Of a stretch of DNA of 64,000 bases, positions 39,812-51,358 are shown one piece after another. The stretch spans positions 96,001 to 160,000 of the forward strand of contig CBDEUS010000002.1 in NCBI GenBank assembly GCA_965243395.1, written 5' to 3'. The notes under the pieces are model-generated. The model had not been told where the DNA came from, searched no databases, and saw only the letters and a list, made by a program, of their open reading frames with translations. The first letter of the stretch is position 1. The number at the start of each line of letters is the position of its first letter. Source of the stretch: Gammaproteobacteria bacterium (lineage in GTDB: Bacteria > Pseudomonadota > Gammaproteobacteria > UBA4575). The translations under genes and the position numbers were made by a program.

Positions 39812-40594
39812 CTATACCCAAGTGCTATTCAAGGTATCCCTAAAATAGTTATTTAAACCCTCAGCTTCAGCCTCAGAGCTTTTTTGAGCAAATTTTGTGT
39901 CCTCTAATCGATTTAATTCAGATTCAATAAACTCATTTAGTACTGTAATCTTTTCTGAAGTATCTTTCTCAAATCCAGATTTTTTTCGCTCTAGCAAGTT
40001 ATTTATGGCACTAAGAAGCTTATTGTCATCAACTAACTTTTCTATTAGTTTGGAAAATTCAGTGGGCACCACGCCATAATCATTTTCTATCCATTGCACT
40101 GCTAATAATGGGCGAAGAACATAAAAATATTTTTTTAAACGAACTTGTTCTTTCTGCAAATGCTCTTTATATGTTCTTTTAGCCATACTTAAATAATGAT
40201 AGGCGCATGAAACTGGTGAAAAACTTTTTGGGAGTAAGTTTTGAAACCCATCAGAAAATTTTTCCTTATCTTTATAGACAATAGGAGACCCTATCCACTC
40301 AATCAAAGGTGGATTAGATTTTCGTAACAATCCGAGTGCCTTTCTCAGATCCCAACCATTTATATCAAGCAAATCATCTATAGGTAATTCGATCACATCT
40401 CTTTTGTGTTCAAGATCAATAGATAGATACCACTCAGGTGGATGTATATAAATAAAACGTACGTCAAAATCACTATCTTTAGATGCAAACCCCCACGCTC
40501 GACTACCCGATTCACAGGCATACAAAACTTGAACATTATATTCATCTTCAATTTCATCAAGCTTTTGAAGGATCTCTTCTTTTCTTTCTATCAT
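39812..40594 (-). CDS. Pol-beta-superfamily nucleotidyltransferase (RlaP/YcgL-like, RtcB-associated)
   Basis: ESGSRAWGFASKDSDFDVRF, WDLRKAL, NPPLIEW, KKYFYVLRP. Confidence 0.88.
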   Translation of the reverse strand: MIERKEEILQKLDEIEDEYNVQVLYACESGSRAWGFASKDSDFDVRFIYIHPPEWYLSIDLEHKRDVIELPIDDLLDINGWDLRKALGLLRKSNPPLIEWIGSPIVYKDKEKFSDGFQNLLPKSFSPVSCAYHYLSMAKRTYKEHLQKEQVRLKKYFYVLRPLLAVQWIENDYGVVPTEFSKLIEKLVDDNKLLSAINNLLERKKSGFEKDTSEKITVLNEFIESELNRLEDTKFAQKSSEAEAEGLNNYFRDTLNSTWV

Positions 40595-40602
40595 AGGTAT
40601 AT

Positions 40603-40902
40603 CTAGAAAAAAGTTTTAACAGTTAAAACTATTCCTAAGATTGGTAGCAATAAAAGCCAAATAATAAATATAGTGGCAATTAATATATTAGCTAAATACG
40701 AAGACTCCACTCCTTCGTCTTCCCAATCTTCATCTGCACAAATTACAGATACAAAATCTGAATTAAACTCAACATTAGAATGTTTATTATCAATTGCGAT
40801 ATCAATCGCATCTTTTAGTAACATTAAACCATCCTTATTGCCTGCAATATTATCTTCATATCTTTCACTGTAAATTTTTACCCAAGCTGTTTCATTATAC
40901 AT
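40603..40902 (-). CDS. Hypothetical protein with C-terminal TM
   Basis: AGGAG RBS; lies between rtcB and the nucleotidyltransferase. Confidence 0.6.
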   Translation of the reverse strand: MYNETAWVKIYSERYEDNIAGNKDGLMLLKDAIDIAIDNKHSNVEFNSDFVSVICADEDWEDEGVESSYLANILIATIFIIWLLLLPILGIVLTVKTFF

Positions 40903-40916
40903 TCAACTACTCCTAA

Positions 40917-42113
40917 CTATCCTTTTACACATACAACTTGACGCAAAGTGTGTTCAACGCTTACTAAATCATTTTGGTTTTCCATCACCACATCAATATC
41001 TTTATATGCGCCAGGAATTTCATCTAACACACCTTTGTCTTTACGACATTCAACACCAGCCGTTTGCGCTTCAATATCTTCTTCATTGAAATGGCGTTTT
41101 GCTTTACCACGACTCATACGTCGACCTGCACCATGCGAACATGAACTAAATGATTCAGGGTTACCTTTGCCACGAACAATGTAAGATTTAGCGCCCATAC
41201 TACCCGGAATAATTCCAAGCTCATCCACACCAGCACGAATCGCACCTTTGCGTGTAATGTAAACATTTTCACCAAAATGGTTTTCCATAGACACATAATT
41301 ATGATGACAATTGATGGCTTCTTTAGTGATACCAAATTTCGGTAACACTTTTTTTAATGCATCAATTATCAAGCGCATCATTTCTTTGCGATTTTCCATT
41401 GCGTAATCTTGAGCCCAGTTCACTGCATTTACATAGTCATCAAAGTGCTCTGCCCCTTCAGTAAAATATGCTAAATCTTTATCTGGCAAATTATGAATAT
41501 GCTTTTGCATATCTTTTTGTGCTAATCGAATAAAGAATTGGCCAATAATATTCCCTACTCCACGGCTACCCGAATGAAGCATAATCCATACATCATTATT
41601 TTCATCTAAACAGATTTCAATAAAATGATTCCCACCACCAAGTGTGCCTAGTTGACGCACCCAAGTTTGATAAGGCTTTTTCTGCATCTTTAAAAGTTTG
41701 GGGTGTTTTTCTAGTAAGCGATCTAAACCGTCAGATAAAGGTCGTATAGTTGAATTGCGAGCTTTATCTGACTTATGCATATCAAAACCAACAGGTATTG
41801 CAACTTCAATAGCAGTACGCACTTTGCGTAAGTTATCTGGAAGATCATTAGCATTCATTGAAAGACGCAAAGCATTCATTCCACAACCAATGTCTACACC
41901 AACCGCAGCAGGAATAATTGCACCTTTACATGGAATTACCGAACCCACAGTCGCACCTTTACCAAAGTGCACATCCGGCATCGCCGCAATATGACTATGG
42001 ATAAAAGGCAACTGTGATAGGTTGCATAGTTGCTGGTAGGCTTCGTGCTCTATGTCATCAGTATAGATTTTTACTCGCACATTACCTTTGGTAATGACTT
42101 TTTTAATTGGCAT
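40917..42113 (-). CDS. rtcB: RNA ligase RtcB
   Basis: MPDVH, VGVDIGCG, GGGNHF, HSGSRG, HNY, SHGAGR, AYK. Confidence 0.96.
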   Translation of the reverse strand: MPIKKVITKGNVRVKIYTDDIEHEAYQQLCNLSQLPFIHSHIAAMPDVHFGKGATVGSVIPCKGAIIPAAVGVDIGCGMNALRLSMNANDLPDNLRKVRTAIEVAIPVGFDMHKSDKARNSTIRPLSDGLDRLLEKHPKLLKMQKKPYQTWVRQLGTLGGGNHFIEICLDENNDVWIMLHSGSRGVGNIIGQFFIRLAQKDMQKHIHNLPDKDLAYFTEGAEHFDDYVNAVNWAQDYAMENRKEMMRLIIDALKKVLPKFGITKEAINCHHNYVSMENHFGENVYITRKGAIRAGVDELGIIPGSMGAKSYIVRGKGNPESFSSCSHGAGRRMSRGKAKRHFNEEDIEAQTAGVECRKDKGVLDEIPGAYKDIDVVMENQNDLVSVEHTLRQVVCVKG

Positions 42114-42125
42114 ATGTCACCCTAA

Positions 42126-42367
42126 TTAATCTCTAAAATATTCATTTCTATTAGAACCATCATGTCGCTTTTTCTTCAAGCAACAATTCTTGAAATCTAC
42201 GCCCTGATCCACATACACATGGATCATTCCGGCCGAACTTCTCGCTAAGTTCTTTATTGCCATGAACGATTCTATTTCCTCGTTTAACGTTTGTTTCTGA
42301 TGGGAATCCTTTACGACGTTTACTCATACGCTCAAAAGGATTGATCCTTATTTTTAAATTTACACAT
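42126..42367 (-). CDS. SEC-C motif protein split over three frames (two +1 shifts)
   Basis: GAGGTG-ATG 42367; middle frame [14 protein letters not shown]; the +1 frame continues FKNCC...EYFRD*. Confidence 0.7.
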
Positions 42368-42393
42368 GTTGCACCTCACATTACTAAACTAAA

Positions 42394-42780
42394 TCAGTTG
42401 TATTTTTTGCGATAGTTACTGGTAAAAGGTTGCGCAACAATTTGATAATCATCTTGATAGCGTATCCTTCCAATTTCCTCACATTTAATCATATCTACAG
42501 CAATACCTTTATTTTGTATTACAGAAAAGAGCTTCCACATAACGCGTATATGCTCTTGTGCACTAGGTTTAAACCAACACAGGCAGCGATAGTTACCGGG
42601 TATCTTCAAAATAGGAGGCACAATTAAATTTCTATCAATCCATCTAAACACATATTGAACTTCTTCATATTCATAATCAGTGAATGAATTGTTGTATTTT
42701 AGCTTGTACGCAAGATGTATTAGGCCTTGTTCATAACGTGACCTCCTGTCTTGGCACAGCCCAATAAATCGTAAGTACAT
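42394..42780 (-). CDS. Hypothetical protein in the rtcB operon
   Basis: 128-aa ORF, CLCWFK, YQDDYQIVA. Confidence 0.7.
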   Translation of the reverse strand: MYLRFIGLCQDRRSRYEQGLIHLAYKLKYNNSFTDYEYEEVQYVFRWIDRNLIVPPILKIPGNYRCLCWFKPSAQEHIRVMWKLFSVIQNKGIAVDMIKCEEIGRIRYQDDYQIVAQPFTSNYRKKYN

Positions 42781-42869
42781 TTTTAATATCCATTTATATT
42801 ATTTCTCAAATTTAATTAAATGACGCAGGCCCTCAAATAATAGAGGGCCTTTGTCAGTTTATACTCACG

Positions 42870-44018
42870 CTACCCATCAACTTTGATTTGTACCGTGTCT
42901 TTTAGGATGCCATCCAAACCTCCGAAGACAGTTAGTTTGTCTACTTTGTCAGTGACTTTTTCCAACGTCTCCAACTCTTTCAAGCGCATCAAGGTTGGGT
43001 TGTCATCCATCAATTTCGCAGTGTTCAACAATGAACGTGTAGCTGCAGTTTCTTCACGTCTTTTAATGACATTTGCTTGCGCCACTTTTTCTGCTTGAAC
43101 TACTTGGTTCAAGATATCTTTCATGTCGCCTGGCAAAATGACATCTTTCACGCCAACGCTGCGAATTTCGATACCGTATTCAGATACGTTTGCTTTAACA
43201 GATTCGTAGACGTATTTGTCTAGTTCATCTTTAGTTACAAGCAATGCATCCAAAGTGCGTGTACCAATTACCTGACGAAGTGCAAATTGCATTTCGCGGT
43301 AAATGTATCCAGCAAGGTCTACCAATTCATGACGCGCTTTAATTGGGTCACGAATTTGATATTGAGCTGACAAGTTTGCACGTAGGCTAACTTTGTCTTT
43401 TGTCAAAACCTCTTGACCTTGCACTTCCATGCTTTGCATTCGCAAATCAACTTGTTCAACTATTACGTTGCGGTTGTATTTCCAGTATGCGTACAAGCCT
43501 GGTTGCAATGATTCTTTTAATTCACCATCCACAACCAATAGGCCAACATAGTTGTCTGCAACTTCTGCGATGTAAATTGAATTAATCAATTCACTTGGTA
43601 CTTGTTTCGCACGTGTGTGCACAAACTGACCCACTTTATTTGCAGGCAATGCAAAATCTTCTGCAATATTTTGCACTTCAACTGTCATTTCAACTGGACC
43701 TTTCCAAAATAATTGGCGTGTACCAGGTGCTACAACAGTGCTCAATTGGCCACGTTGATAAACCAATCCAACTTCATATGCGTCGGTTTCAACAACTTGG
43801 AAGTATTTTGTTACTATCTCAGGTTGTTCTTTTACCAAGACATCCACATATTTGTGGTTGAATTGCGCTTCCGTTACATCATAAATCTCGACTTGAATTC
43901 GGCCGAAAATATCGAAATATCGATATACGCCTGGTTCAAGCACTTTTACAATGCTTCGGTTTTTCAAGTAAATTCCTCGCTCATGCTGCGCAATAACAAT
44001 TCTTTTAAATCCGAACAT
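42870..44018 (-). CDS. Slipin-family SPFH/band-7 protein
   Basis: GQEVLTKDKV, RREETAATRSLLNTA, LMRLKELE. Confidence 0.92.
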   Translation of the reverse strand: MFGFKRIVIAQHERGIYLKNRSIVKVLEPGVYRYFDIFGRIQVEIYDVTEAQFNHKYVDVLVKEQPEIVTKYFQVVETDAYEVGLVYQRGQLSTVVAPGTRQLFWKGPVEMTVEVQNIAEDFALPANKVGQFVHTRAKQVPSELINSIYIAEVADNYVGLLVVDGELKESLQPGLYAYWKYNRNVIVEQVDLRMQSMEVQGQEVLTKDKVSLRANLSAQYQIRDPIKARHELVDLAGYIYREMQFALRQVIGTRTLDALLVTKDELDKYVYESVKANVSEYGIEIRSVGVKDVILPGDMKDILNQVVQAEKVAQANVIKRREETAATRSLLNTAKLMDDNPTLMRLKELETLEKVTDKVDKLTVFGGLDGILKDTVQIKVDG

Positions 44019-44044
44019 AATTACTCCTTATTAAATAAAGTTTC

Positions 44045-44515
44045 GGGAAATGCTCCACATATAAATTGCGGGTAAACTCCTGTTGTAGTAACGGGTCTAA
44101 AATCTTTCGCATGTCATTGCGATACCCCAACTATCGCTTTGAACATGTTTCAGTCTCTAGACTGGTTATCACAAGCTTGTGATCACGCAGGCAATCTACA
44201 TGTTGCGACATAAAAAACTCTCAACCGTAGTTGAGCTATTTGAAATGTCGCGGGAACATTTCCCTGGTTAGTGTTTTCACACAAAATGCGGATTCGAACC
44301 GCAGGCTTTCGCCATTACCAATGAACAACGTTTAAAGTTGTCGAAAGAACAGGAATCGAACCTGCAACATTTCCGTTATCAGCGGAATGCTCTCCCTTTG
44401 AGCTATCTTTCACTGGTGTATCGGACCACTTACAACTTTGTATACACATTGCAATCACCTTTCGGCTTAGCTTTTGTGCACAGGTCTGAATTCAAGAATC
44501 AGATCCGCTAAGTAA
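44045..44515 (-). ncRNA. Candidate highly structured ncRNA/leader upstream of slipin
   Basis: Dense hairpins, GNRA tetraloop GGC-GAAA-GCC, stand-alone T-arm TGCGG-TTCGAAT-CCGCA, nested tRNA-like domain. Confidence 0.6.
44341..44412 (-). tRNA. tRNA-Ile(GAT)-like domain lacking encoded CCA
   Basis: Full cloverleaf, TTCCG-CT-GAT-AA-CGGAA, GGTTCGATTCC. Confidence 0.65.
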
Positions 44516-44636
44516 ATAAATGTCTCTCAATACTCATGAACTCAATGTTTATAAAACATCGAATTACAATTCTTTAAATACAGGTGACCTGCCCCATTGC
44601 AGGCCACCATTTTTCACGCCCCCTTTCTCCTAAAAT

Positions 44637-45203
44637 TTAACGTCGCTCTTTAGGACATTGTGTTTTCAAGAACGCCATTTGGTCTGCCAAAATTTTGCGG
44701 TTAGATAAAATCAATCCTTCTGCATAATTTGGCTCATATGGAATTCCTAATAATGAAATTCCTATTCTTTCTGCCTCACTAGGCATTAAGCTATCTTTAC
44801 GTGCATTACATGCACGGCATGCTGTAACCACATTCATCCATGTGTTTTTCCCACCACGTGATAGTGGAATCACATGATCGCGCGTTAAGCGATTTCGAGA
44901 ATATTGATCACCGCAATACATGCACATGTAATCATCACGTCGAAACAATCTTGCATTTGTCAGTGCAGGCACTTCACGAATGTGGTCGTCTGATCGCATC
45001 ACACCATGTGTTGCAACAATACTGTTCACATCAATAAATGAACGAGTTCTTGTTCTGCGATTTACACCACCATGAATACGAAAAGAATTTGAACCCATTT
45101 CGTAAACAACTTGTTCTCGTGCATACACTAATGCTGCATATTCCCAGTTCATCCATTCAACTGGACGCCCAGCTACGTCTAAACGCAAAATTAAATTTTC
45201 CAT
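44637..45203 (-). CDS. HNH endonuclease
   Basis: RRDDYMCMYCG, TRDHVIP, NVVTACRACN. Confidence 0.92.
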   Translation of the reverse strand: MENLILRLDVAGRPVEWMNWEYAALVYAREQVVYEMGSNSFRIHGGVNRRTRTRSFIDVNSIVATHGVMRSDDHIREVPALTNARLFRRDDYMCMYCGDQYSRNRLTRDHVIPLSRGGKNTWMNVVTACRACNARKDSLMPSEAERIGISLLGIPYEPNYAEGLILSNRKILADQMAFLKTQCPKERR

Positions 45204-45231
45204 TTAACTTTTCTCTTTTATAAAGTTACTG

Positions 45232-45254
45232 TTTAACAATTTGGATGATTGAAG
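45232..45254. repeat. Trailer arm of perfect 23-bp inverted repeat enclosing the tRNA array
   Basis: TTTAACAATTTGGATGATTGAAG = reverse complement of 48565-48587. Confidence 0.95.
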
Positions 45255-45263
45255 AGTTTAATT

Positions 45264-45340
45264 TGGTACGCAGCCCCAGATTTGAACTGGGAATCAAGTA
45301 GGTTTGAGCTACTCAGGTCTTCCAATTGCCTCAGCTGCGC
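45264..45340 (-). tRNA. tRNA-Leu(CAA), short variable loop
   Basis: AGTAG-CT-CAA-AC-CTACT, CCA. Confidence 0.85.
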
Positions 45341-45352
45341 AAAAATTTAATT

Positions 45353-45429
45353 TGGTATCCCTGGCAAGATTCGAACTTGCAACATTCTGGTTTTAAGTCA
45401 GATGCGTCTTCCGGTTGCGCCACAGGGAC
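45353..45429 (-). tRNA. tRNA-Leu(TAA), short variable loop
   Basis: TCTGA-CT-TAA-AA-CCAGA, CCA. Confidence 0.85.
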
Positions 45430-45440
45430 GTAATGTAATT

Positions 45441-45518
45441 TGGTAGCCACCCTCGGATTTGAACCGAGATGCACCATGTTCTAAGCATGGTAGGTATGCC
45501 AATTCCCGTCAGATGGCC
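45441..45518 (-). tRNA. tRNA-Leu(TAG), short variable loop
   Basis: CCATG-CT-TAG-AA-CATGG, CCA. Confidence 0.85.
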
Positions 45519-45561
45519 AAAATTTTTATTTTTATAATTTAGTTATACATAAATTATGATT

Positions 45562-45637
45562 TGGTACCCCTAGTAAGATTCGAACTCACATCAACTGATT
45601 TAGAAGATCAGTGCTTTTCCAATTAAGCTATAGAGGT
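45562..45637 (-). tRNA. tRNA-Arg(TCT)
   Basis: CTGAT-CT-TCT-AA-ATCAG, CCA. Confidence 0.9.
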
Positions 45638-45659
45638 AAAAAACTAATTGAATTATTTT

Positions 45660-45756
45660 TGGTACCCCAACCAAGATTCGAACTTGGATCTACCACTAAT
45701 CTGGTGCGTGAATCACGGGATATAAATCCGCTGCTTTACCGTTAAGCTATTGGGGC
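45660..45756 (-). tRNA. tRNA-Ile(TAT) with ~27-nt extra region
   Basis: GCGGA-TT-TAT-AT-CCCGT, 97 nt, CCA. Confidence 0.75.
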
Positions 45757-45765
45757 AAAATTTTT

Positions 45766-45839
45766 TGGACACTCCGCTCAGAATTGAACTGAGTCCTCAA
45801 GGGTTGCAACCTTGCGTCTTGCCGATCGACCACGGAGTG
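45766..45839 (-). tRNA. tRNA-Cys(GCA)
   Basis: CAAGG-TT-GCA-AC-CCTTG, U73, CCA. Confidence 0.88.
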
Positions 45840-45840
45840 T

Positions 45841-45915
45841 TGGCACATCCGGAAAGATTTGAACTTTCATCTTTGGGTTTGGAGGCCAATGTTCTGCCAA
45901 TTGAACTACAGATGC
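45841..45915 (-). tRNA. tRNA-Trp(CCA)
   Basis: CT-CCA-AA loop, G73, CCA. Confidence 0.88.
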
Positions 45916-45917
45916 TC

Positions 45918-45993
45918 TGGCTGGGAGTCCTGGACTCGAACCAAGATCTCAAGAGTCAAAGTCTTGCGTCTTAACCAGTTAGACGAATTCCCA
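45918..45993 (-). tRNA. tRNA-Gln(TTG)
   Basis: CAAGA-CT-TTG-AC-TCTTG, U1-A72, G73. Confidence 0.9.
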
Positions 45994-46002
45994 TTTTTGT
46001 TT

Positions 46003-46079
46003 TGGCGCGGTTGGAAAGACTCAAACTTTCATCTTCGACTTTCGTAGAGTCGTGCTTTATCCGATTAAGCTACAACCGC
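46003..46079 (-). tRNA. tRNA-Arg(ACG)
   Basis: CGACT-CT-ACG-AA-AGTCG, CCA. Confidence 0.9.
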
Positions 46080-46087
46080 AAAAACTT

Positions 46088-46163
46088 TGGTAGCCCGAAT
46101 CCGATTCGAACGGATAACTTTCGCTTTGTAAGAACGACACTCTGCCAATTGAGTTATCGGGCT
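46088..46163 (-). tRNA. tRNA-Val(TAC)
   Basis: TCGTT-CT-TAC-AA-AGCGA, CCA. Confidence 0.9.
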
Positions 46164-46171
46164 AAAATTTT

Positions 46172-46243
46172 TGGTAGTTACGGTTAGAATCGAACTAACA
46201 AGTCCAGGGTTATGAGCCCTAGCCGAAGACCACTTCCGTAACT
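46172..46243 (-). tRNA. Initiator-like tRNA-Met(CAT) with aberrant short D-arm
   Basis: TAGGG-CT-CAT-AA-CCCTG (3 G-C pairs), 72 nt, CCA. Confidence 0.75.
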
Positions 46244-46251
46244 AAAGTATT

Positions 46252-46325
46252 TGGTGGATCCAGTAGGAGTCGAACCTACCTCTGCGGGTTAAAAGCCCGC
46301 TGCACAACCGCTATGCCATAGATCC
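46252..46325 (-). tRNA. tRNA-Lys(TTT)
   Basis: GCGGG-CT-TTT-AA-CCCGC, CCA. Confidence 0.9.
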
Positions 46326-46326
46326 T

Positions 46327-46402
46327 TGGCACGCCTGAAAGGAGTTGAACCTTTATCTCACTGGTTCGAAGCCAGTGGCTCTTCCAATTAAGCTACAGAC
46401 GT
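46327..46402 (-). tRNA. tRNA-Arg(TCG)
   Basis: ACTGG-CT-TCG-AA-CCAGT, CCA. Confidence 0.88.
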
Positions 46403-46404
46403 AT

Positions 46405-46495
46405 TGGCGGAGAAGAACAGATTCGAACTGTTGAATGAAAAATTTCCATCCCTCCTTTAGCAAAGGAGTGCTTTAAACCACTCAGCCACTTCTCC
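46405..46495 (-). tRNA. tRNA-Ser(GCT)
   Basis: CTCCT-TT-GCT-AA-AGGAG, long variable arm, G73. Confidence 0.9.
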
Positions 46496-46555
46496 AATTT
46501 ATAATTTGCAGCGCTTCGCGATATTTAATTTGCGAGTAATACCCACTCGCAAGCG

Positions 46556-46631
46556 TGGGGTGAACTACCGGACTCGAACCGGTATCTACCAGATTCACGT
46601 TCTGGGGCTTTGCCATTAAGCTAAGCTCACC
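46556..46631 (-). tRNA. tRNA-His(GTG)
   Basis: CCAGA-AC-GTG-AA-TCTGG, encoded G-1 and C73. Confidence 0.88.
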
Positions 46632-46642
46632 ATAATTATTTT

Positions 46643-46734
46643 TGGCGGAAGGCGGAGGGCACGATCCCCACCAACTAAAAAGCCAGCCACCAGTTTTCAA
46701 GACTGGGACACCCCCACTGGGTGAATCACCTTCC
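46643..46734 (-). tRNA. tRNA-Ser(TGA), non-canonical 8/4 fold
   Basis: CCAGT-CT-TGA-AA-ACTGG; 8-bp acceptor GGAAGGTG/CGCCTTCC, 4-bp T stem, long variable arm, G73. Confidence 0.8.
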
Positions 46735-46749
46735 TTATATATGTAAATT

Positions 46750-46824
46750 TGGAGCGGATAATCGGATTCGAACCGATATTTATGGTTTGGAAGACCATCA
46801 CTCTGCCAATTGAGTTATACCCGC
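46750..46824 (-). tRNA. tRNA-Gly(TCC)
   Basis: ATGGT-CT-TCC-AA-ACCAT, U73. Confidence 0.9.
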
Positions 46825-46829
46825 AGATT

Positions 46830-46907
46830 TGGTCTGAGTGGCTGGATTCGAACCAACGACCTCTCGCTTCCAAGGCGAGTACTCTGCCCAGGCTGAGCTA
46901 CACTCAG
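46830..46907 (-). tRNA. tRNA-Pro(TGG)
   Basis: CTCGC-CT-TGG-AA-GCGAG, C1-G72. Confidence 0.9.
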
Positions 46908-46934
46908 AGAATTAATTAAATATAAAAAATTATT

Positions 46935-47010
46935 TGGTGCATCGAGTTGGACTTGAACCAACGACCACACGATTATCGGTCGTGCGCTCTACCAACTGAG
47001 CTATCGATGC
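46935..47010 (-). tRNA. tRNA-Ile(GAT)
   Basis: CACGA-CC-GAT-AA-TCGTG, CCA. Confidence 0.9.
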
Positions 47011-47011
47011 T

Positions 47012-47086
47012 TGGTGTTCCTGACCAGAATTGAACTGGCATCTCGAGTTTGAAAGACTCGTGACCTCACCATTAGTCGACAGGAAC
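47012..47086 (-). tRNA. tRNA-Glu(TTC)
   Basis: CGAGT-CT-TTC-AA-ACTCG, CCA. Confidence 0.9.
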
Positions 47087-47100
47087 TAATAAAATATTTT

Positions 47101-47176
47101 TGGCGGACCCGATCGGACTCAAACCGACATCCCCTTTATCGACAGTAAAGTGCTTTATCAATTAAGCTACGAATCC
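47101..47176 (-). tRNA. tRNA-Asp(GTC)
   Basis: CTTTA-CT-GTC-GA-TAAAG, G73. Confidence 0.88.
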
Positions 47177-47184
47177 AACTTTTG

Positions 47185-48045
47185 TTTAAAGGTTGAGACT
47201 ATGCCTTTAAAAATCACTCTTTTGTTGAAGTACCTAACGCATTGCTGTGCGATAGTTGCCAACGTGTCCACATTACCCTGGTTGCTCCAGCGATTATGTT
47301 AGTGATCATGACTGCTTTTTTTAAAGTGTAGCGATTCACTTGTCGCGTTAATCTATTCAGCTATTCACTTACCGAGAACCTTGCCAGGCTCTAAACGGAG
47401 GCTATCCGAACGTGCAATGAAGTAACTAAAGTTCTTTGGCTTGCGACCGCAGAATCTTCCATGTTCCCAAGTGGGCATGGACTTAAGTCATTTTCAATTA
47501 ACACCGAGACGCGTCTTTGCGTTTCACCGTATGGTGATCTATGTGGGAGTCGAACCCACGACCTATTGATTCTAAGTCAATCGCTCTACCAATCTGAGCT
47601 AAAAGATCAGGTACTACTAAGACGTGCACGTCTCAGTTGCTTCATTATTTTTTGAATAACGAAATACAACACGCCTTTTGTCTTTCCTCTGCCGAGTACT
47701 TAACCGAATATTCGGATCATGGCTTCCACCCATTTCCCTAATAATCTGCACAACCGCACTTGTCTGCAAAACTCGTACTATGTTGTACTACCTGTTATCT
47801 CTCGTAGTACGCAATCTAGTATCACGGGTTACAGCACTACCTGTATCTTTCTCACGACCCGTATTCCCAAGTAAACCTGGTACGTCAATCGTGGTACTTC
47901 CGCGTATTGCTTGGCTACTATTGCCGATTGAATTACGACAACATGGAGACCAGGCTTGCTTGGTTTGACCTACTTTGAAAAGTGGGCGAAATACCGTAGT
48001 CGTATTCCTTTCCTATCGTTGCCGATAGTTATCGTGCCAAGCCAC
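47185..48045 (-). ncRNA. Large structured ncRNA, GOLLD-like, with nested tRNA
   Basis: ~860 nt with no credible ORF inside the tRNA array, many stems, repeated ACAGGTAGT motif, 3' hairpin TTTAAAGG-CATAGTCTCAA-CCTTTAAA; family assignment from recalled properties, not a search. Confidence 0.6.
47532..47608 (-). tRNA. Class-I-shaped tRNA with TAG (Leu) anticodon nested in the large ncRNA
   Basis: ATTGA-CT-TAG-AA-TCAAT, GGTTCGACTCC, CCA; one acceptor-stem mismatch. Confidence 0.8.
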
Positions 48046-48050
48046 ATATT

Positions 48051-48126
48051 TGGTGGAGGATCACGGATTTGAACCGTGCGCCTTCTGTTTGCAATACAGA
48101 CGCTCTGCCAACTGAGCTAATCCCCC
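48051..48126 (-). tRNA. tRNA-Ala(TGC)
   Basis: AT-TGC-AA loop, G3-U70. Confidence 0.9.
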
Positions 48127-48135
48127 AAACTTATT

Positions 48136-48210
48136 TGGCTGCGACGGTTGGACTCGAACCAACATTGCTTCGCTTAACAGACGAATGTTCTACCATTGAA
48201 CTACATCGCA
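48136..48210 (-). tRNA. tRNA-Asn(GTT)
   Basis: TTCGT-CT-GTT-AA-GCGAA, G73. Confidence 0.9.
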
Positions 48211-48218
48211 ATTATATT

Positions 48219-48295
48219 TGGTGCATCAGGATGGATTCGAACCACCATCGCGTCGGGCTTCAACCGACCGCTCTACCCATTGGAGCTACCGATGC
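48219..48295 (-). tRNA. tRNA-Phe(GAA)
   Basis: GTCGG-TT-GAA-GC-CCGAC, CCA; unrelated in sequence to the att-type Phe fragments. Confidence 0.88.
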
Positions 48296-48304
48296 AAAAA
48301 TAAT

Positions 48305-48389
48305 TGGTGGAGAGAGATGGATTCGAACCACCACGCTAATAATTAGCACTGGGTTACAGCCAGCGTGTCTCACCAATGACTGTCTCTCC
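48305..48389 (-). tRNA. tRNA-Tyr(GTA)
   Basis: CTGG-CT-GTA-AC-CCAG, variable arm GCTAAT-T-ATTAGC. Confidence 0.85.
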
Positions 48390-48401
48390 TAAAGTTAAAA
48401 C

Positions 48402-48477
48402 TGGAGCTGGTGATAGGCGTCGAACCTACAACCTACTGCTTACAAAGCAGTTGCTCTGCCATTTGAGCTACACCAGC
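48402..48477 (-). tRNA. tRNA-Thr(TGT)
   Basis: ACTGC-TT-TGT-AA-GCAGT, CCA. Confidence 0.9.
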
Positions 48478-48486
48478 AAAAAATAT

Positions 48487-48559
48487 GGGACAGTCGCACA
48501 TGCGCACAACTCAACTTAGGAGTTGGGCATAATTTAAAAATTAAATTACGCACTGCCCC
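48487..48559 (-). ncRNA. Small four-way-junction RNA element at the head of the array
   Basis: Closing stem GGGGCAGT/ACTGTCCC with three internal hairpins. Confidence 0.45.
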
Positions 48560-48564
48560 GCCTA

Positions 48565-48591
48565 CTTCAATCATCCAAATTGTTAAAGAGC
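48565..48591 (-). promoter_or_regulatory. rrn-type boxA antitermination site overlapping the leader arm of the 23-bp inverted repeat
   Basis: GCTCTTTAACAATTT matches the gammaproteobacterial rrn boxA. Confidence 0.85.
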
Positions 48592-48604
48592 TACTGCCAG
48601 GACT

Positions 48605-48639
48605 AAAAAACCCCGGAAGGCGAACCTAACCGGGGTTTT
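48605..48639 (-). terminator. Intrinsic terminator (attenuator) before the tRNA array
   Basis: AAAACCCCGGTTAGGT-TC-GCCTTCCGGGG-TTTTTT. Confidence 0.88.
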
Positions 48640-48693
48640 ATTTTGATTCCGGAAGGCTCGCAACGCGCACCCTCCGAATTAATTTGGAAGGTA

Positions 48694-48849
48694 CTACGTA
48701 ATTGGGTCCTCTAAGGTGGCCCCAATAAAATTATTTGTGCCGAGATTCGATATCTCATGCACAGCAACACACCACAAAAAACACGACGGCTTTAATAACC
48801 GCTGCATTAGTTGCGCTGAAAAACTAGTTGTATATGTACTTCTATTCAT
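48694..48849 (-). CDS. Putative 51-aa leader peptide MNRSTYTTSFSAQLMQRLLKPSCFLWCVAVHEISNLGTNNFIGATLEDPIT
   Basis: Starts 10 nt after the -10 box; stop abuts the first attenuator segment; contains all 20 amino acids. Confidence 0.7.
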   Translation of the reverse strand: MNRSTYTTSFSAQLMQRLLKPSCFLWCVAVHEISNLGTNNFIGATLEDPIT

Positions 48850-48859
48850 AGTGCGCGAA

Positions 48860-48887
48860 AGTCTAATGATATGGATTTTAAAGTCAA
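48860..48887 (-). promoter_or_regulatory. sigma70-like promoter with GC-rich discriminator
   Basis: TTGACT-N16-TAGACT-TTCGCGCACT-ATG. Confidence 0.72.
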
Positions 48888-48937
48888 GTAATATTTTACT
48901 AAGTAAAGTGTGAATTTACGCCCAATTATCGGCCAAA

Positions 48938-49591
48938 TTAATCCTCAAGGGCTGACAAAAAAGAAATCATTGCTTTACGTTGTTTTTCATTTAAAGAGAG
49001 TGATGCAGAAATTATTTCTTGAATGTCCGTTAATTGTTTTTGAAATTCTTTATTGTTCAATTCTTTAGGTGCTTCATCCAACCAACCTACTGGTTTTTTT
49101 GCTGCAACTTCAATTCCTCTTGCAAACTCATCACTCATGCTTGGAATAAATGGTGTTTTGTAATGTTGTTGAAATAATTCCCATGATACTCCTGCTGATT
49201 CACATTCTTTTTTAGAACAAACCTTATTACCAGACTTTCCACATAGGGTCTTAAAGTTTGTAAATCTAACGATTTGAAGAAATGGGTCTAAGTTTTTTAC
49301 AGGAGCAGTGCCAAATAATAACCAATTGGTGGAATATCCAGTAACTTTGCTAATACCTTCAATGATTTTTAAATTTGGGTTTTGTGGAGCCGACGTTTCG
49401 TAAAGAGAAAGAAGTTGTTTTGACACCTTTAGTCTTCTTTTTTTCAATAATTGCATCATCTCACTTGGATCAATGCCATTAACTACACGTGCAAAACGCA
49501 CCCTTGATGAAACTGTAGCTAATTCATTTTTTCGTTTTGAACTACTAGTTGATTTTTTGGAGACACGACGTTTAGATTTATTTTTTACCAT
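48938..49591 (-). CDS. XRE/Cro-like HTH protein
   Basis: VSKQLLSLYE...ISKVTGYSTNWLLFG; second HTH-like ARGIEVAAKKPVGWLD. Confidence 0.7.
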   Translation of the reverse strand: MVKNKSKRRVSKKSTSSSKRKNELATVSSRVRFARVVNGIDPSEMMQLLKKRRLKVSKQLLSLYETSAPQNPNLKIIEGISKVTGYSTNWLLFGTAPVKNLDPFLQIVRFTNFKTLCGKSGNKVCSKKECESAGVSWELFQQHYKTPFIPSMSDEFARGIEVAAKKPVGWLDEAPKELNNKEFQKQLTDIQEIISASLSLNEKQRKAMISFLSALED

Positions 49592-49642
49592 TCGTTTTTC
49601 ACTTCATGTTTTCAAGCAATAATTTTAAATTCTTATTATTTT

Positions 49643-51358
49643 CTATGGTATGACGGGTACTCGCATATGCGTAGGCGTTTCTCCTCCGAAACAAATTTTT
49701 TGCATAGCACTTATTGCCTCAGTCTCATAAGGAATGGAATCTCCAGTGTTTGGGTTTCGATCAAATCTTGGGAAACTGCTGCTTGTGATATGGACCCTAA
49801 TTTGATGTCCCTTTTTGAAAACATAACTTGTAGGCCACAGTTCAATCTCAATCTTTTTCGCATTTTTACAGCTTTGTCCTTCTAATTGATACTCCGCTCT
49901 TTTTATGCCATCAGTAACGTTATAGGAACTTCCATCTTCAAATACATCCGTAATTCTAACTACAAAATCTGTATTACTTACATTTGTTTGCACATAAAGA
50001 AATGCAGATACAGGACCAGTTATTTCAGTATCTTCATTCAGCACTTCGCTTGTATAAACAAGTACATCTTTTCTCGATTCGATTTCATTTTGCAGTGCGA
50101 TCCCAGCCCGTGGACCTAAAACTACTCCACCATTTGATGGAACTGGAATATTTGGATCATAGACATAATGATCAAACCCAAATTTTTCAGGATTAGCCCA
50201 AGTTAATTTTCCCGAATGTGCTGAAGTACCCGCAGTTCCATCACTGGAAATGTATAAATTCTTAAATTGAGTCCTCGCTAATGGCCATTCGTTTTCATAT
50301 CTCCATTCATTCTTACCAAGTACAAATAATTTAATTTTTCCCAAGCCATTTTTCTCATTGTTTTGTTCTAATAATTTTTTGTCAAACCAATTTAAGGCTT
50401 CTTTGATACTTGTCTCTCTATATGTTGGTACTTTATTTAAACTAGGTATTTTTACTTCTCTTGCATGTGACCACGGACCGACTATTATTTCTCCCTGTTT
50501 TAATTGCACGAAATCATTAATTTGAGAGGGTAAAAATGGGTCAAACCAGCCAGCAAGCATTTGCACGGGGGCACTTATTGTTTTTGCTCTATCGACACCA
50601 TCAATATTAATCCAGTAGTTATTTTTAGTATTGTTTAGTACCCAGTCGTTAAAAAACTGTATGTCTTTATCAGCGCGCTCGTCTGCTTCAATTAATGGGA
50701 ACCCATCAAATCCTTTTTCCATATCCTTAATTTTAGGTTCGATGTCTTTTTTGCCACCACTTTGAAGTGACCATCTAAGTGCGCTCTCAAGAGAGAAAGC
50801 ACCGCCTGGGTAAAACATGTCATAGAAGCTAGTACTAACAATATGCAAGTGGTAAGCACTGATACTTGGATTAATTTGATCAGAGATGGCTAGCTGTGTG
50901 TATCCAAAAGCAGAACCACCCCACATGCCAAGTTGTCCATTGAACCATGGTTGCTCGTTCAACCATTGCAATGTTTCGATTCCATCACTTCTTTCATTTA
51001 TTAATGGATAGTAATCACCTTGAGATTTATAACGCCCACGTGTTCCTTGAATAACAACATTGTATCCACGAGATGCCCAGTATCTTGCGACTGATTCTGA
51101 TTTCAAACGATTCGAGAATGTATTTGTAAAAGGTATTCTTACTAAAATCGTAGGTACCGGTTTATTAACAATTGGCCTATAGACATCAGAGACAAGAGTT
51201 ATATTGTCTGATGTAATTAAACTTTTATCTTCATGTTTTACTACTTTATATTCTCTTGATCGAACTCCTTCATTCGGAAGAAATAATTCTTGTGTAATGG
51301 TTTGACAACCATATAACAGAAAAAATAACAAAAAAGAAAGATATCTAAAAAGTTTCAT
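49643..51358 (-). CDS. CocE/NonD-family serine hydrolase, lipoprotein
   Basis: Lipobox LYGC, QGTRGRYKSQG, GMWGGSAFG, FPRFDRNPNTG. Confidence 0.9.
   Translation of the reverse strand: MKLFRYLSFLLFFLLYGCQTITQELFLPNEGVRSREYKVVKHEDKSLITSDNITLVSDVYRPIVNKPVPTILVRIPFTNTFSNRLKSESVARYWASRGYNVVIQGTRGRYKSQGDYYPLINERSDGIETLQWLNEQPWFNGQLGMWGGSAFGYTQLAISDQINPSISAYHLHIVSTSFYDMFYPGGAFSLESALRWSLQSGGKKDIEPKIKDMEKGFDGFPLIEADERADKDIQFFNDWVLNNTKNNYWINIDGVDRAKTISAPVQMLAGWFDPFLPSQINDFVQLKQGEIIVGPWSHAREVKIPSLNKVPTYRETSIKEALNWFDKKLLEQNNEKNGLGKIKLFVLGKNEWRYENEWPLARTQFKNLYISSDGTAGTSAHSGKLTWANPEKFGFDHYVYDPNIPVPSNGGVVLGPRAGIALQNEIESRKDVLVYTSEVLNEDTEITGPVSAFLYVQTNVSNTDFVVRITDVFEDGSSYNVTDGIKRAEYQLEGQSCKNAKKIEIELWPTSYVFKKGHQIRVHITSSSFPRFDRNPNTGDSIPYETEAISAMQKICFGGETPTHMRVPVIP

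What the first reader, a model, noticed from the sequence alone, without database searches (positions are those of the whole stretch)
48605..48887. General translation-sensing attenuator: 51-codon leader with all 20 amino acids and five alternative pairing segments
Seen: directly after the leader stop come seg1 UACCUUCC (48686-48693), seg2 GGAGGGUG (48668-48675), seg3 GCCUUCCGG (48649-48657), seg4 CCCCGGUUAGGU (48624-48635) and seg5 GCCUUCCGGGG+U6 (48605-48621). Seg3 is an exact copy of part of seg5. Inference: a ribosome reaching the stop masks seg1, so 2:3 and the 4:5 terminator form (OFF). A ribosome stalled earlier allows 1:2 and the 3:4 antiterminator (ON). Classical attenuators repeat one amino acid; this leader samples every amino acid, matching an array covering all 20. 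Full coverage in 51 codons can also occur by chance.
Basis: partly seen in the sequence, partly recalled or inferred. Interest (0 to 1): 0.9.

Follow-up and report, generated by a model that had tools for sequence, protein, structure and literature searches.

The report
Translation-sensing attenuator before a tRNA array
A short, apparently leaderless reading frame followed by five mutually exclusive RNA pairing segments and a terminator sits in front of a 27-gene tRNA array, and the same device turns out to be widespread in Proteobacteria in front of spare tRNA sets, extra EF-G genes and ABC exporters, which fits a switch that turns these genes on when translation falters.

Summary
The 51-codon frame, all 20 amino acids, five segments and U6 terminator lie where stated.

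I collected 144 distinct leaders of this build:
- 23 of 56 genomes of the window's family;
- Competibacter, Pseudomonadales, Cellvibrionales, Burkholderiales, Rhodocyclaceae and Arenicellales;
- metagenomes.

In nearly all, an ATG frame of 13-63 codons ends at or inside segment 1. In many lineages the ATG lies 7-10 nt after the -10 box, with a GC-rich discriminator and no Shine-Dalgarno, so the mRNA looks leaderless.

Swap tests and covariation support helices 1:2, 2:3 and 3:4. Folding gives 1:2 plus a 3:4 antiterminator when segment 1 is free, and 2:3 plus the terminator when it is masked.

Downstream lie tRNA arrays, single odd tRNAs, EF-G paralogues, ABC exporters or small unknown proteins.

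All-20 coverage is enriched in array-linked leaders (6 of 12 versus 0 of 51) but is not universal.

No Rfam family and no paper found describes this device. It is a new variant of ribosome-mediated attenuation. Start site, translation and read-through remain untested.

The parts
48860..48887 (-). Promoter-like site: TTGACT (48887-48882), 16 nt spacer, TAGACT (48865-48860)
   Evidence: 9 of 12 matches; such scans are not evidence of function on their own. A -10-like hexamer 7-10 nt before the leader ATG, in several lineages preceded by a -35-like box, recurs in homologous leaders: Competibacter TTGACT-17-TATACT, L047 TTGACA..TAAACT, L133 TTGACA-17-TAAATT, own family TTGCAA..TATAGT, Burkholderiales CACAAT.
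48850..48859 (-). GC-rich discriminator TTCGCGCACT between the -10 box and the ATG. No Shine-Dalgarno, so the mRNA would be leaderless or nearly so.
   Evidence: The ATG lies 7-10 nt after the -10 hexamer in the own family, Competibacter, Arenicellales, L133 and Burkholderiales. The start site itself is inferred, not mapped.
48694..48849 (-). Leader ORF: 51 codons plus TAG, containing all 20 amino acids
   Evidence: It stays open in G028 despite a 21-nt in-frame insertion. In the 61 of 85 genome leaders that have 30 codons or more, the other two frames carry a stop in 61 of 61 and 53 of 61.
48686..48694 (-). Segment 1 (G)UACCUUCC, the 5' arm of hairpin 1:2. It begins with the last base of the stop codon.
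48668..48675 (-). Segment 2 GGAGGGUG, the toggle arm. It pairs with seg1 or with seg3.
48649..48661 (-). Segment 3 with its 5' flank, GCGAGCCUUCCGG. It pairs with seg2 (anti-antiterminator) or with seg4 and the terminator loop (antiterminator).
48620..48635 (-). Segment 4 CCCCGGUUAGGU plus the loop UUCG(C). This is the 5' arm of the terminator and the partner of seg3 in the antiterminator.
48605..48621 (-). Segment 5 GCCUUCCGGGG plus U6, the 3' arm and U-tract of the intrinsic terminator
   Evidence: terminator hairpin alone -18.8 kcal/mol.
48580..48591 (-). boxA-like GCTCTTTAACAA, 14 nt after the U-tract
   Evidence: only exact copy in the genome. The 15 nt GCTCTTTAACAATTT are identical to the rrnB boxA stretch in a primer printed in PMC2176067 (passage read). 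Related copies follow the leaders of L047 and L133.
48565..48595 (-). 5' arm of a 31-nt inverted repeat (holds the boxA-like stretch) that brackets the array
   Evidence: arms 45224-45254 and 48565-48595, 90% complementary. The same pair is present in G028.
45224..45254 (-). 3' arm of that inverted repeat. It lies just after the last tRNA of the main array and before the HNH gene.
45264..48477 (-). Main tRNA array (24 of the 25 ARAGORN tRNAs, the 25th lying at 44340-44412, plus 2-3 more by Rfam), the presumed regulated cargo
47190..47677 (-). GOLLD RNA (Rfam RF02032) inside the array, with tRNA-Leu(tag) embedded in it
   Evidence: 153.5 bits against a gathering score of 150, E = 4.4e-42.
39812..45203 (-). 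Same-strand genes after the array: HNH nuclease (44637-45203), SPFH/Band 7 (42870-44018), a 128-aa ORF, RtcB RNA ligase family (40917-42113) and RlaP (39812-40594)
   Evidence: Co-transcription with the array is not shown.

Best explanation
This is a ribosome-mediated transcription attenuator that reports whether the first ribosome keeps up with RNA polymerase.

Proposed sequence of events:
1. Transcription starts a few bases before, or at, the AUG of a 51-codon frame that has no Shine-Dalgarno.
2. If a ribosome translates the frame and reaches the UAG while polymerase is still within the next 90 nt, it unwinds seg1. seg2 then pairs with seg3, seg4 stays free, the 4:5 hairpin with its U6 tract forms, and transcription ends. 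This is the OFF state.
3. If the ribosome is late, stalled or absent, hairpin 1:2 forms first. seg3 with its flank then pairs with seg4 and the terminator loop, and polymerase reads through. This is the ON state.
4. Read-through polymerase meets a boxA-like element and goes on into the tRNA array with its GOLLD RNA, and possibly into the RNA-repair genes.

What is shown and what is inferred:
- Shown by sequence and comparison: the parts, their conservation, the co-variation of the alternative helices, and the position of the stop codon.
- Inferred: the start site, translation of the frame, which state terminates in vivo, and the inducing condition.

The all-20 composition of array-linked leaders suggests that shortage of any one tRNA could be sensed. 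That step is the least secure.
For: 1. Anatomy confirmed.

2. Distribution. Covariance model R1 finds a native copy at E <= 7e-12 in 23 of 56 genomes of the family. These include all 15 of the genus counting G000. G000 and G028 also hold the divergent array copy.

3. Wider scans. 77 of them have the seg2 motif and 85 distinct leaders were kept. It returned 118 metagenome loci with 59 further distinct leaders.

4. The frame.
- It ends between -13 and +4 nt of the first paired base of seg1 in 82 of 85; one further leader is an outlier at -18 and two have no ORF.
- Frame lengths vary from 13 to 63 codons.
- In the 61 of these 85 leaders that have 30 codons or more, the other frames are closed in 61 of 61 and 53 of 61.
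- G028 keeps the frame across a 21-nt insertion.

5. The ATG lies 7-10 nt after a -10 hexamer with a GC-rich discriminator in five lineages.

6. Helix 2:3. 95.2% of cells are paired against 33-58% when slid. Covariation is 0.207 against 0.139 in shuffles (0 of 500 reach it). Flank pair 64/79 reads UA 37, CG 25, UG 17, other 2.

7. Swap test, n = 144, cognate against non-cognate duplex energy:
- 1:2: -15.8 vs -11.8 (133 of 144 better).
- 3:4: -17.3 vs -14.9 (117 of 144).
- 2:3: -17.3 vs -16.1 (106 of 144).
- control 1:4: -10.70 vs -10.74 (66 of 144).

8. Folding. The prefix without a mask gives 1:2 plus 3:4. The full length with seg1 masked gives 2:3 plus the terminator in 7 of 7 leaders shown. 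For the window, the unmasked full-length optimum lacks the terminator.

9. Cargo fits translation stress: tRNAs in 24 of 77; EF-G above the TIGR00484 cut-off and ABC exporters; an RtcB family ligase and RlaP behind this array.

10. Precedent. An Anabaena tRNA array is induced 100-1000 fold by ribosome-targeting antibiotics together with rtcB (PMC8421152, passages read).
Against: - No experimental datum. The start site is unmapped, and the laid runs did not cover the leader.
- A frame without a Shine-Dalgarno depends on leaderless initiation, which is assumed.
- In Pseudomonadales and Cellvibrionales the ATG lies 15-30 nt after the putative -10, with no clear ribosome site.
- Thermodynamics alone do not give the switch. 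In 78 of 85 leaders the unmasked full-length optimum still contains all six outer terminator pairs. With seg1 masked, the prefix optimum keeps 3:4 rather than 2:3 in 3 of 7 leaders shown. Both states must therefore be kinetically selected.
- The six core pairs of 2:3 were fixed by my search pattern and carry no information.
- Inside the ORF, window and L047 keep hairpins through compensatory and wobble changes that alter the peptide. So part of the 'ORF conservation' is RNA-level constraint.
- All-20 coverage fails in 6 of 12 array-linked leaders. It does not track which tRNAs the arrays hold.
Confidence: 0.7

Rival explanations
1. The unit from promoter to terminator is a free-standing small gene. 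It would be a roughly 245-nt RNA, perhaps dual-function, that encodes a small protein and carries C/U-rich CCUUCC motifs able to pair with ribosome-binding sites in trans. The array would then be made by unregulated leak-through or from its own promoter.
For: - A strong promoter-like site and a strong terminator bracket the unit.
- CCUUCC occurs three times and is nearly invariant in the family.
- Attenuator-derived RNAs that act in trans are known in Sinorhizobium (abstracts listed).
- In most leaders the terminator is the thermodynamic optimum.
Against: - The scan found no promoter-like site between the U-tract (48605) and the first tRNA (48477). The boxA-like element starts 14 nt after the U-tract.
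- The three alternative helices co-vary with each other, which an sRNA seed would not need.
- The peptides are not conserved between lineages.
- This reading does not exclude the attenuator. The two could coexist.
Confidence: 0.12
2. The leader is an untranslated riboregulator. The structured 'ORF' region would bind a protein, a tRNA or a small ligand that sets the 1:2 versus 2:3 choice, and the open frame would be incidental.
For: - The region is unusually structured (z = -4.47).
- Hairpins inside the frame are kept between window and L047 by compensatory changes that alter amino acids.
- No Shine-Dalgarno is present.
Against: - Open frames of very different length and sequence all run from a promoter-proximal ATG to a stop at seg1, in 140 of 144 leaders. 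The other frames are closed.
- The 21-nt insertion in G028 is in frame.
- No Rfam family matches, including T-box, at E <= 1 or at gathering scores in the 18 other distinct loci scanned.
- No sequence block in the ORF region is shared across lineages.
Confidence: 0.08
3. The hairpin with U6 is a processing or Nus-factor loading structure of an rRNA-operon-like leader (the boxB-boxA arrangement). Control would then lie at the promoter, through a stringent-type GC-rich discriminator, and not at termination.
For: - The boxA-like stretch is identical over 15 nt to the rrnB boxA stretch in PMC2176067.
- There is a GC-rich discriminator.
- A 31-nt inverted repeat brackets the array, like the processing stems of rRNA operons (the comparison is from general knowledge).
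Against: - The same five-segment leader stands before protein genes that have no boxA-like stretch: EF-G, ABC exporters and small ORFs.
- The hairpin has the full form of an intrinsic terminator, including a U-tract of 4 or more in all leaders, although the pattern itself required four U.
- This reading does not explain the frame or the 1:2, 2:3 and 3:4 alternatives.
Confidence: 0.05

Closest known systems
Classical amino-acid operon attenuators of Enterobacteria (trp, his, leu, thr, phe, ilv leaders)
   Same: A short leader frame, overlapping alternative hairpins that end in an intrinsic terminator, and the position of the leading ribosome deciding which hairpins form.
   Different: - Here there is no run of codons for one amino acid.
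- There are five segments instead of four, so the parity is inverted: no translation gives read-through.
- The stop codon sits in seg1.
- The frame appears leaderless.
- The cargo is tRNAs, EF-G or exporters, not biosynthetic enzymes.

The comparison rests on general knowledge and on abstracts listed.
Antibiotic-responsive ribosome-mediated attenuators (for example BmrB-bmrCD of Bacillus subtilis, PMC4191407; mef/mel, PMC4335068)
   Same: A general reading of translation, rather than of one amino acid, controls a terminator in front of an ABC transporter or a protection factor. The logic is the same: impaired translation of the leader gives read-through.
   Different: Those are Gram-positive, have ribosome-binding sites, and share no sequence or segment plan with this family. 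I saw only the search listing and abstracts. No induction data exist for the present family.
Leaderless short ORFs acting as attenuators in mycobacteria (poly-cysteine sORFs, bioRxiv 10.1101/834739)
   Same: A leaderless short frame as the first cistron, whose translation sets expression of the genes behind it.
   Different: Those sense cysteine through runs of Cys codons. I saw only the abstract, so their terminator mechanism was not compared.
Stress-induced tRNA L-array (trn operon) of Anabaena PCC 7120 and its repressor TrcR (PMC8421152, PMC10272220)
   Same: A spare, near-complete tRNA set is kept silent and switched on when translation is impaired, and it is linked with rtcB.
   Different: Control there is by a DNA-binding repressor at the -10 box. 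The words 'attenuat', 'leader' (PMC8421152) or 'leader peptide' (PMC10272220), and 'terminator' occur 0 times in either paper (passages read). Here the control element is an RNA switch.
rrn-operon boxA antitermination leaders
   Same: A boxA-like stretch directly before a long untranslated, highly structured transcript, with flanking complementary sequences.
   Different: boxA here lies after a conditional terminator, and it is found only in some array-linked members (window, G028, L047, L133). Binding of Nus factors was not tested.

Membership tests
Amino-acid-specific leader-peptide attenuators (trp/his/leu type) | Leader frame with clustered codons for the regulating amino acid | tested here: not met
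   The window leader has no run of any codon and holds all 20 amino acids. Other family leaders are equally mixed.
Amino-acid-specific leader-peptide attenuators (trp/his/leu type) | Overlapping alternative hairpins ending in an intrinsic terminator, with the leader stop close to the first hairpin | tested here: met
   There is one extra segment: five rather than four.
Amino-acid-specific leader-peptide attenuators (trp/his/leu type) | Downstream amino-acid biosynthesis genes | tested here: not met
   The cargo is tRNAs, EF-G, ABC exporters or small ORFs.
General translation-stress (antibiotic-type) ribosome-mediated attenuators | A translated leader whose impaired translation favours an antiterminator | tested here: inconclusive
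   The structure logic fits and the frame is conserved. Translation and the direction of the switch in vivo were not tested.
General translation-stress (antibiotic-type) ribosome-mediated attenuators | Induction of the downstream genes by translation inhibitors or tRNA shortage | not testable with these tools
   The public runs laid did not cover the leader.
T-box riboswitch | Match to the T-box covariance model (specifier loop, T-box sequence) | tested here: not met
   Only tRNA-type models, GOLLD and sub-threshold matches to three other models (two plastid UTR families and YrlA) appear at E <= 1 in 44000-50000, all inside the array, none of them T-box and none in the leader. There were no non-tRNA hits in the 18 other distinct leader loci scanned.
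Any Rfam 15 family | Score at or above the gathering threshold over 48605-48887 | tested here: not met
rrn-type boxA element | boxA core sequence directly upstream of a long structured non-coding transcript | tested here: met
   There is 15-nt identity with the rrnB boxA stretch printed in PMC2176067. NusB/NusE binding is not testable here.
GOLLD RNA (RF02032), the cargo and not the finding itself | Score above Rfam's gathering threshold | tested here: met
   153.5 bits against 150 over the full model 1-416.

The most novel reading that the evidence does not exclude
The family is a general 'coupling meter' that Proteobacteria place before back-up translation hardware. In the array-linked branch, the leader has been selected to contain every amino acid. 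Loss of any single tRNA species, for instance to an anticodon nuclease, a toxin or a phage, would then stall the lead ribosome. That stall would switch on a complete spare tRNA set, together with GOLLD RNA and the HNH, SPFH, RtcB and RlaP genes.

This would give GOLLD, an RNA of unknown function, a defined inducing condition. It would also make tRNA arrays an inducible repair or counter-defence module controlled by the very process they restore.
Probability: 0.35. Interest if true: 0.92.

Novelty: new variant of a known kind. Interest (0 to 1): 0.8.

Why it matters
Why bacteria keep silent, near-complete tRNA arrays, and how those arrays are switched on, is known only for one cyanobacterium, where a repressor does it. 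Here an RNA device would do the job directly from the state of translation.

The same device recurs before extra EF-G genes and ABC exporters in several orders of Proteobacteria. That makes it a candidate widespread regulon marker for translation stress.

It also offers three further things:
- a compact natural sensor of transcription-translation coupling;
- a rare case of a conserved leaderless regulatory frame in Gram-negative bacteria;
- a concrete condition under which to look for GOLLD RNA function.

Tried and rejected

**Phage origin.** A distant search of the phage collection matched only the tRNA-Thr part of the query. The window lies in a 2.58 Mb bacterial genome.

**ArfA idea.** By eye, the third small ORF of the native operon looked like a ribosome-rescue factor.
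- No Pfam or NCBIfam family matched.
- The Atlas gave only unnamed clusters below 0.9.
- The idea was dropped.

**Sequencing runs.**
- Four runs of one sample hold the stretch, and the RNA runs hold 5-7% of its words.
- Of the four runs laid, none covered the leader. X2, X3 and X22 laid nothing.
- So there is no information on start, end or expression of the leader.

**Other scans.**
- The boxA-type pattern found nothing in metagenomes.
- The generic pattern gave one viral contig, L159, which lacks the seg2 motif.

**GOLLD elsewhere.** It was not found at gathering score in the held parts of ten other leader loci (nine tRNA-linked, plus L057, where the leader is followed by the HNH gene).

**Leader versus array content.** No relation was seen between the amino acids missing from a leader and the tRNAs missing from its array. 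Most arrays are cut by the stretch limits.

**Alignment problems.**
- The CM-based alignment of distant leaders (A6) and the MAFFT alignment (A7) place seg1 in different registers.
- I therefore did not run the pair-count tool on 1:2 or 3:4, and used per-sequence folding and a swap test instead.

**Stop-codon idea.** UAG dominates in the own family, which suggested sensing specific to release factor 1. Other lineages use UGA or UAA, so the idea was rejected.

**Supplements.** Supplementary files of papers were not consulted. Those of PMC8421152 may list proteobacterial arrays and their neighbourhoods.

Full report
**What is at the site**

On the minus strand the 217-aa ORF ends at 48938. After it come, in order:
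- a promoter-like site, TTGACT-16-TAGACT, at 48887-48860;
- ten GC-rich bases;
- an ATG at 48849 with no Shine-Dalgarno;
- a 51-codon frame that ends in TAG at 48696-48694.

The peptide holds all 20 amino acids. The chance of that for 51 random residues is 0.02-0.03. The 266-nt stretch folds far better than its shuffles (z = -4.47).

Fourteen bases after the U6 tract comes GCTCTTTAACAATTT. This is identical to the rrnB boxA stretch printed in PMC2176067. The array then begins at 48477. It has 25 tRNAs by ARAGORN, two more tRNA matches by Rfam, and a GOLLD RNA at 47190-47677. Behind it on the same strand lie an HNH nuclease, an SPFH protein, an RtcB-family ligase and RlaP.

The scan saw no promoter-like site between the terminator and the first tRNA. 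The array therefore probably depends on read-through.

**Where else it occurs**

The window belongs to a 2.58 Mb, two-contig bacterial genome.

*In the genome's own family.*
- A 94% identical copy, with the same array, stands in a genome of another genus of the same family (G028).
- Weaker hits to the seg1-5 part alone led to a second, 'native' copy. I built a covariance model from five of those hits. It finds this copy at E <= 7e-12 in 23 of 56 genomes of the family, including all 15 of the window's genus.
- The window's own genome has exactly two copies.
- The native copy precedes three small ORFs of unknown function.

*In other bacteria and in metagenomes.*
77 of them also have the seg2 motif.
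- The same pattern returned 118 metagenome loci with 59 further distinct leaders.
- The named hosts are Competibacter and Contendobacter, several Pseudomonadales and Cellvibrionales, Burkholderiales (Roseateles, Pelomonas, Ideonella, Variovorax, Rhizobacter), Rhodocyclaceae, Arenicellales and unclassified Gammaproteobacteria.
- The members of the window's own family are labelled only as uncultured Gammaproteobacteria or Thiotrichales.

**The frame**

- In 83 of 85 distinct leaders from genomes, an ATG frame ends at or just before seg1. In 82 of them the stop ends between -13 and +4 nt of the first paired base of seg1. One is an outlier at -18. L061 and L121 have no such frame.
- 57 of 59 metagenome leaders also have the frame.
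- Frame length runs from 13 codons (Burkholderiales) through 33 (Competibacter) to 41-63.
- Peptides are alike within a lineage and unrelated between lineages.
- In the 61 genome leaders (of the 85) with 30 or more codons, the +1 frame holds a stop in 61 of 61 and the +2 frame in 53 of 61.
- G028 carries a 21-nt insertion that keeps the frame.
- In the window's family, Competibacter, Arenicellales, L133 and Burkholderiales, the ATG stands 7-10 nt after a -10 hexamer, behind a GC-rich discriminator. That is the layout of a leaderless mRNA.
- In Pseudomonadales and Cellvibrionales the distance is 15-30 nt and no ribosome site is evident. That is a weak point.

**The helices**

*Helix 2:3, on the 85-row alignment.*
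- 95.2% of cells pair, against 33-58% when the partner is slid.
- The covariation score is 0.207, against 0.139 in shuffles (0 of 500 reach it).
- The six core pairs were fixed by my pattern. The information lies in the flanking pairs: UA 37, CG 25, UG 17, other 2.

*Swap test, for all three alternatives (n = 144).* I paired each leader's segment with its own partner and with partners from 40 other leaders, and compared duplex energies, own against other.
- 1:2: -15.8 vs -11.8, own partner better in 133 of 144.
- 3:4: -17.3 vs -14.9, 117 of 144.
- 2:3: -17.3 vs -16.1, 106 of 144.
- control 1:4: -10.70 vs -10.74, 66 of 144.

- In the window, GCGAGCCU-U-CCGG (48661-48649) pairs with CCGG-UU-AGGUUCGC (48633-48620).
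- In the native type, the flank GCUCAC pairs with the terminator loop and inner arm GUGAGC.
- In several lineages seg3 resembles seg5, as in the window.

**The two states**

- Folding the transcript up to just before seg5 gives 1:2 plus 3:4.
- Folding the full length with seg1 masked gives 2:3 plus the terminator, in all seven leaders shown.
- For the window, the unmasked full-length optimum has 1:2 plus 3:4 and no terminator.

Results that count against a purely thermodynamic switch:
- in 78 of 85 leaders the unmasked optimum still holds the terminator;
- in 3 of the 7 leaders shown, the masked prefix still prefers 3:4.

The order of synthesis must therefore decide.

Mean hairpin energies over the 85 leaders are -15.0 (1:2), -16.0 (2:3), -13.9 (3:4 prefix) and -20.3 (terminator).

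**Cargo**

- tRNAs follow on the same strand in 24 of 77 genome loci.
- Multi-tRNA arrays follow in L047, L052, L133 and L137 (and two spaced tRNAs in L116), and a single tRNA follows at +158-172 in the Competibacter group.
- Further arrays in metagenomes have up to 18 tRNAs in the held part and begin Thr-Tyr-Phe-Asn, like the window.
- In Burkholderiales and Rhodocyclaceae the next gene is an EF-G (865-889 bits against a cut-off of 659).
- In Pseudomonadales it is an ABC permease-ATPase.
- In Teredinibacter it is the HNH gene that follows the array here.

This set fits a response to impaired translation. In Anabaena a tRNA array is induced 100-1000 fold by ribosome-targeting antibiotics, together with rtcB, but through the repressor TrcR. 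Neither paper mentions an attenuator (PMC8421152 and PMC10272220, passages read).

**All twenty amino acids**

Among leaders of 40-70 residues:
- the 12 that precede arrays hold 19.33 kinds on average, against 17.73 expected, and 6 have all 20;
- the 51 others hold 17.43 kinds, against 17.14 expected, and none has all 20;
- the permutation test gives p = 0.00025.

The 12 fall into about four peptide groups and the test ignores relatedness, so I treat this as suggestive. The 13-codon and 33-codon leaders cannot sample all amino acids, or do not. This feature therefore belongs to one branch of the family, not to the family as a whole.

**RNA constraint inside the frame**

Window and L047 share hairpins in the frame that are kept by compensatory or wobble changes which alter the peptide. 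They may time polymerase and ribosome, but their role is open.

**Novelty**

- No Rfam family matches.
- Six full-text searches found no paper that joins tRNA arrays with a leader peptide or attenuator, or that describes this leader before EF-G or ABC genes.
- Subscription journals are largely outside that library, and supplements were closed.

**Verdict**

My confidence is about 0.7. The device is a new, widespread variant of ribosome-mediated attenuation. All functional steps still need an experiment.

Noticed in passing
window 47190-47677 (-), perhaps up to about 48050: There is a GOLLD RNA (RF02032, 153.5 bits against a gathering score of 150) inside the tRNA array, with tRNA-Leu(tag) embedded at 47532-47608. 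The 440-nt gap up to tRNA-Ala may be its variable 5' part. Contigs of one marine metatranscriptome run (X18, at least 99% alike) cover 47287-47494 and 47746-48033. An RNA library can hold DNA, so this is only a hint of expression. GOLLD was not found in the held parts of ten other leader loci (nine of them tRNA-linked).
   Followed up: partly
window 45224-45254 and 48565-48595: A 31-nt inverted repeat, 90% complementary, brackets the main array. Its 5' arm holds the boxA-like stretch. In the RNA it would form a long-range stem, like the processing stems that flank rRNAs. The same pair is present in G028.
   Followed up: partly
L045, L046, L056, L060, L072, L081, L103, L104, L118-L120, L125, L147, L148, L151 and metagenome loci L196, L198, L207, L216, L229, L234, L244, L254, L274: In the Competibacter and Contendobacter leaders, a conserved roughly 158-nt spacer is followed by one tRNA. 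Its anticodon differs from strain to strain: Met, Thr, Ile(gat), Ile(aat), His(atg), Leu(cag), Pro(tgg), Pro(agg), Pro(cgg), and one with a four-base anticodon call. Several start with A34, which is unusual for bacteria (general knowledge).
   Followed up: no
window 39812-45203 (-): An RNA-repair-like gene set lies behind the array: HNH nuclease, SPFH/Band 7, a 128-aa ORF, an RtcB-family ligase (below the NCBIfam equivalog cut-offs) and RlaP (322 bits). There is also a lone tRNA-Ile and a tRNA 3' fragment at 44287-44412.
   Followed up: partly
G000:C2:739700-740620 (L010 and L014): The native copy of the leader in the same genome precedes three small ORFs of 75, 76 and 74-82 aa. None has a Pfam, NCBIfam or named Atlas family. 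The operon is conserved across the family.
   Followed up: partly
L047:2567-3880 (-): An IS1380-family transposase (406 bits) is inserted in the middle of the Arenicellales tRNA array.
   Followed up: no
window 48938-49591 (-): The 217-aa ORF just upstream of the leader has only a sub-threshold helix-turn-helix match (HTH_3, 16.6 bits against a cut-off of 23). It might be a regulator of the island.
   Followed up: no
window 48694-48849 (-) versus L047 leader: Two hairpins inside the leader frame are kept between the window and L047: CGGUU..AGCCG, and GUGC-AU-GAGAU..AUCUC-G-GCAC. The changes between the two are compensatory or wobble changes that alter the amino acids. The 21-nt insertion of G028 lies in the loop of the second hairpin.
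   Followed up: partly
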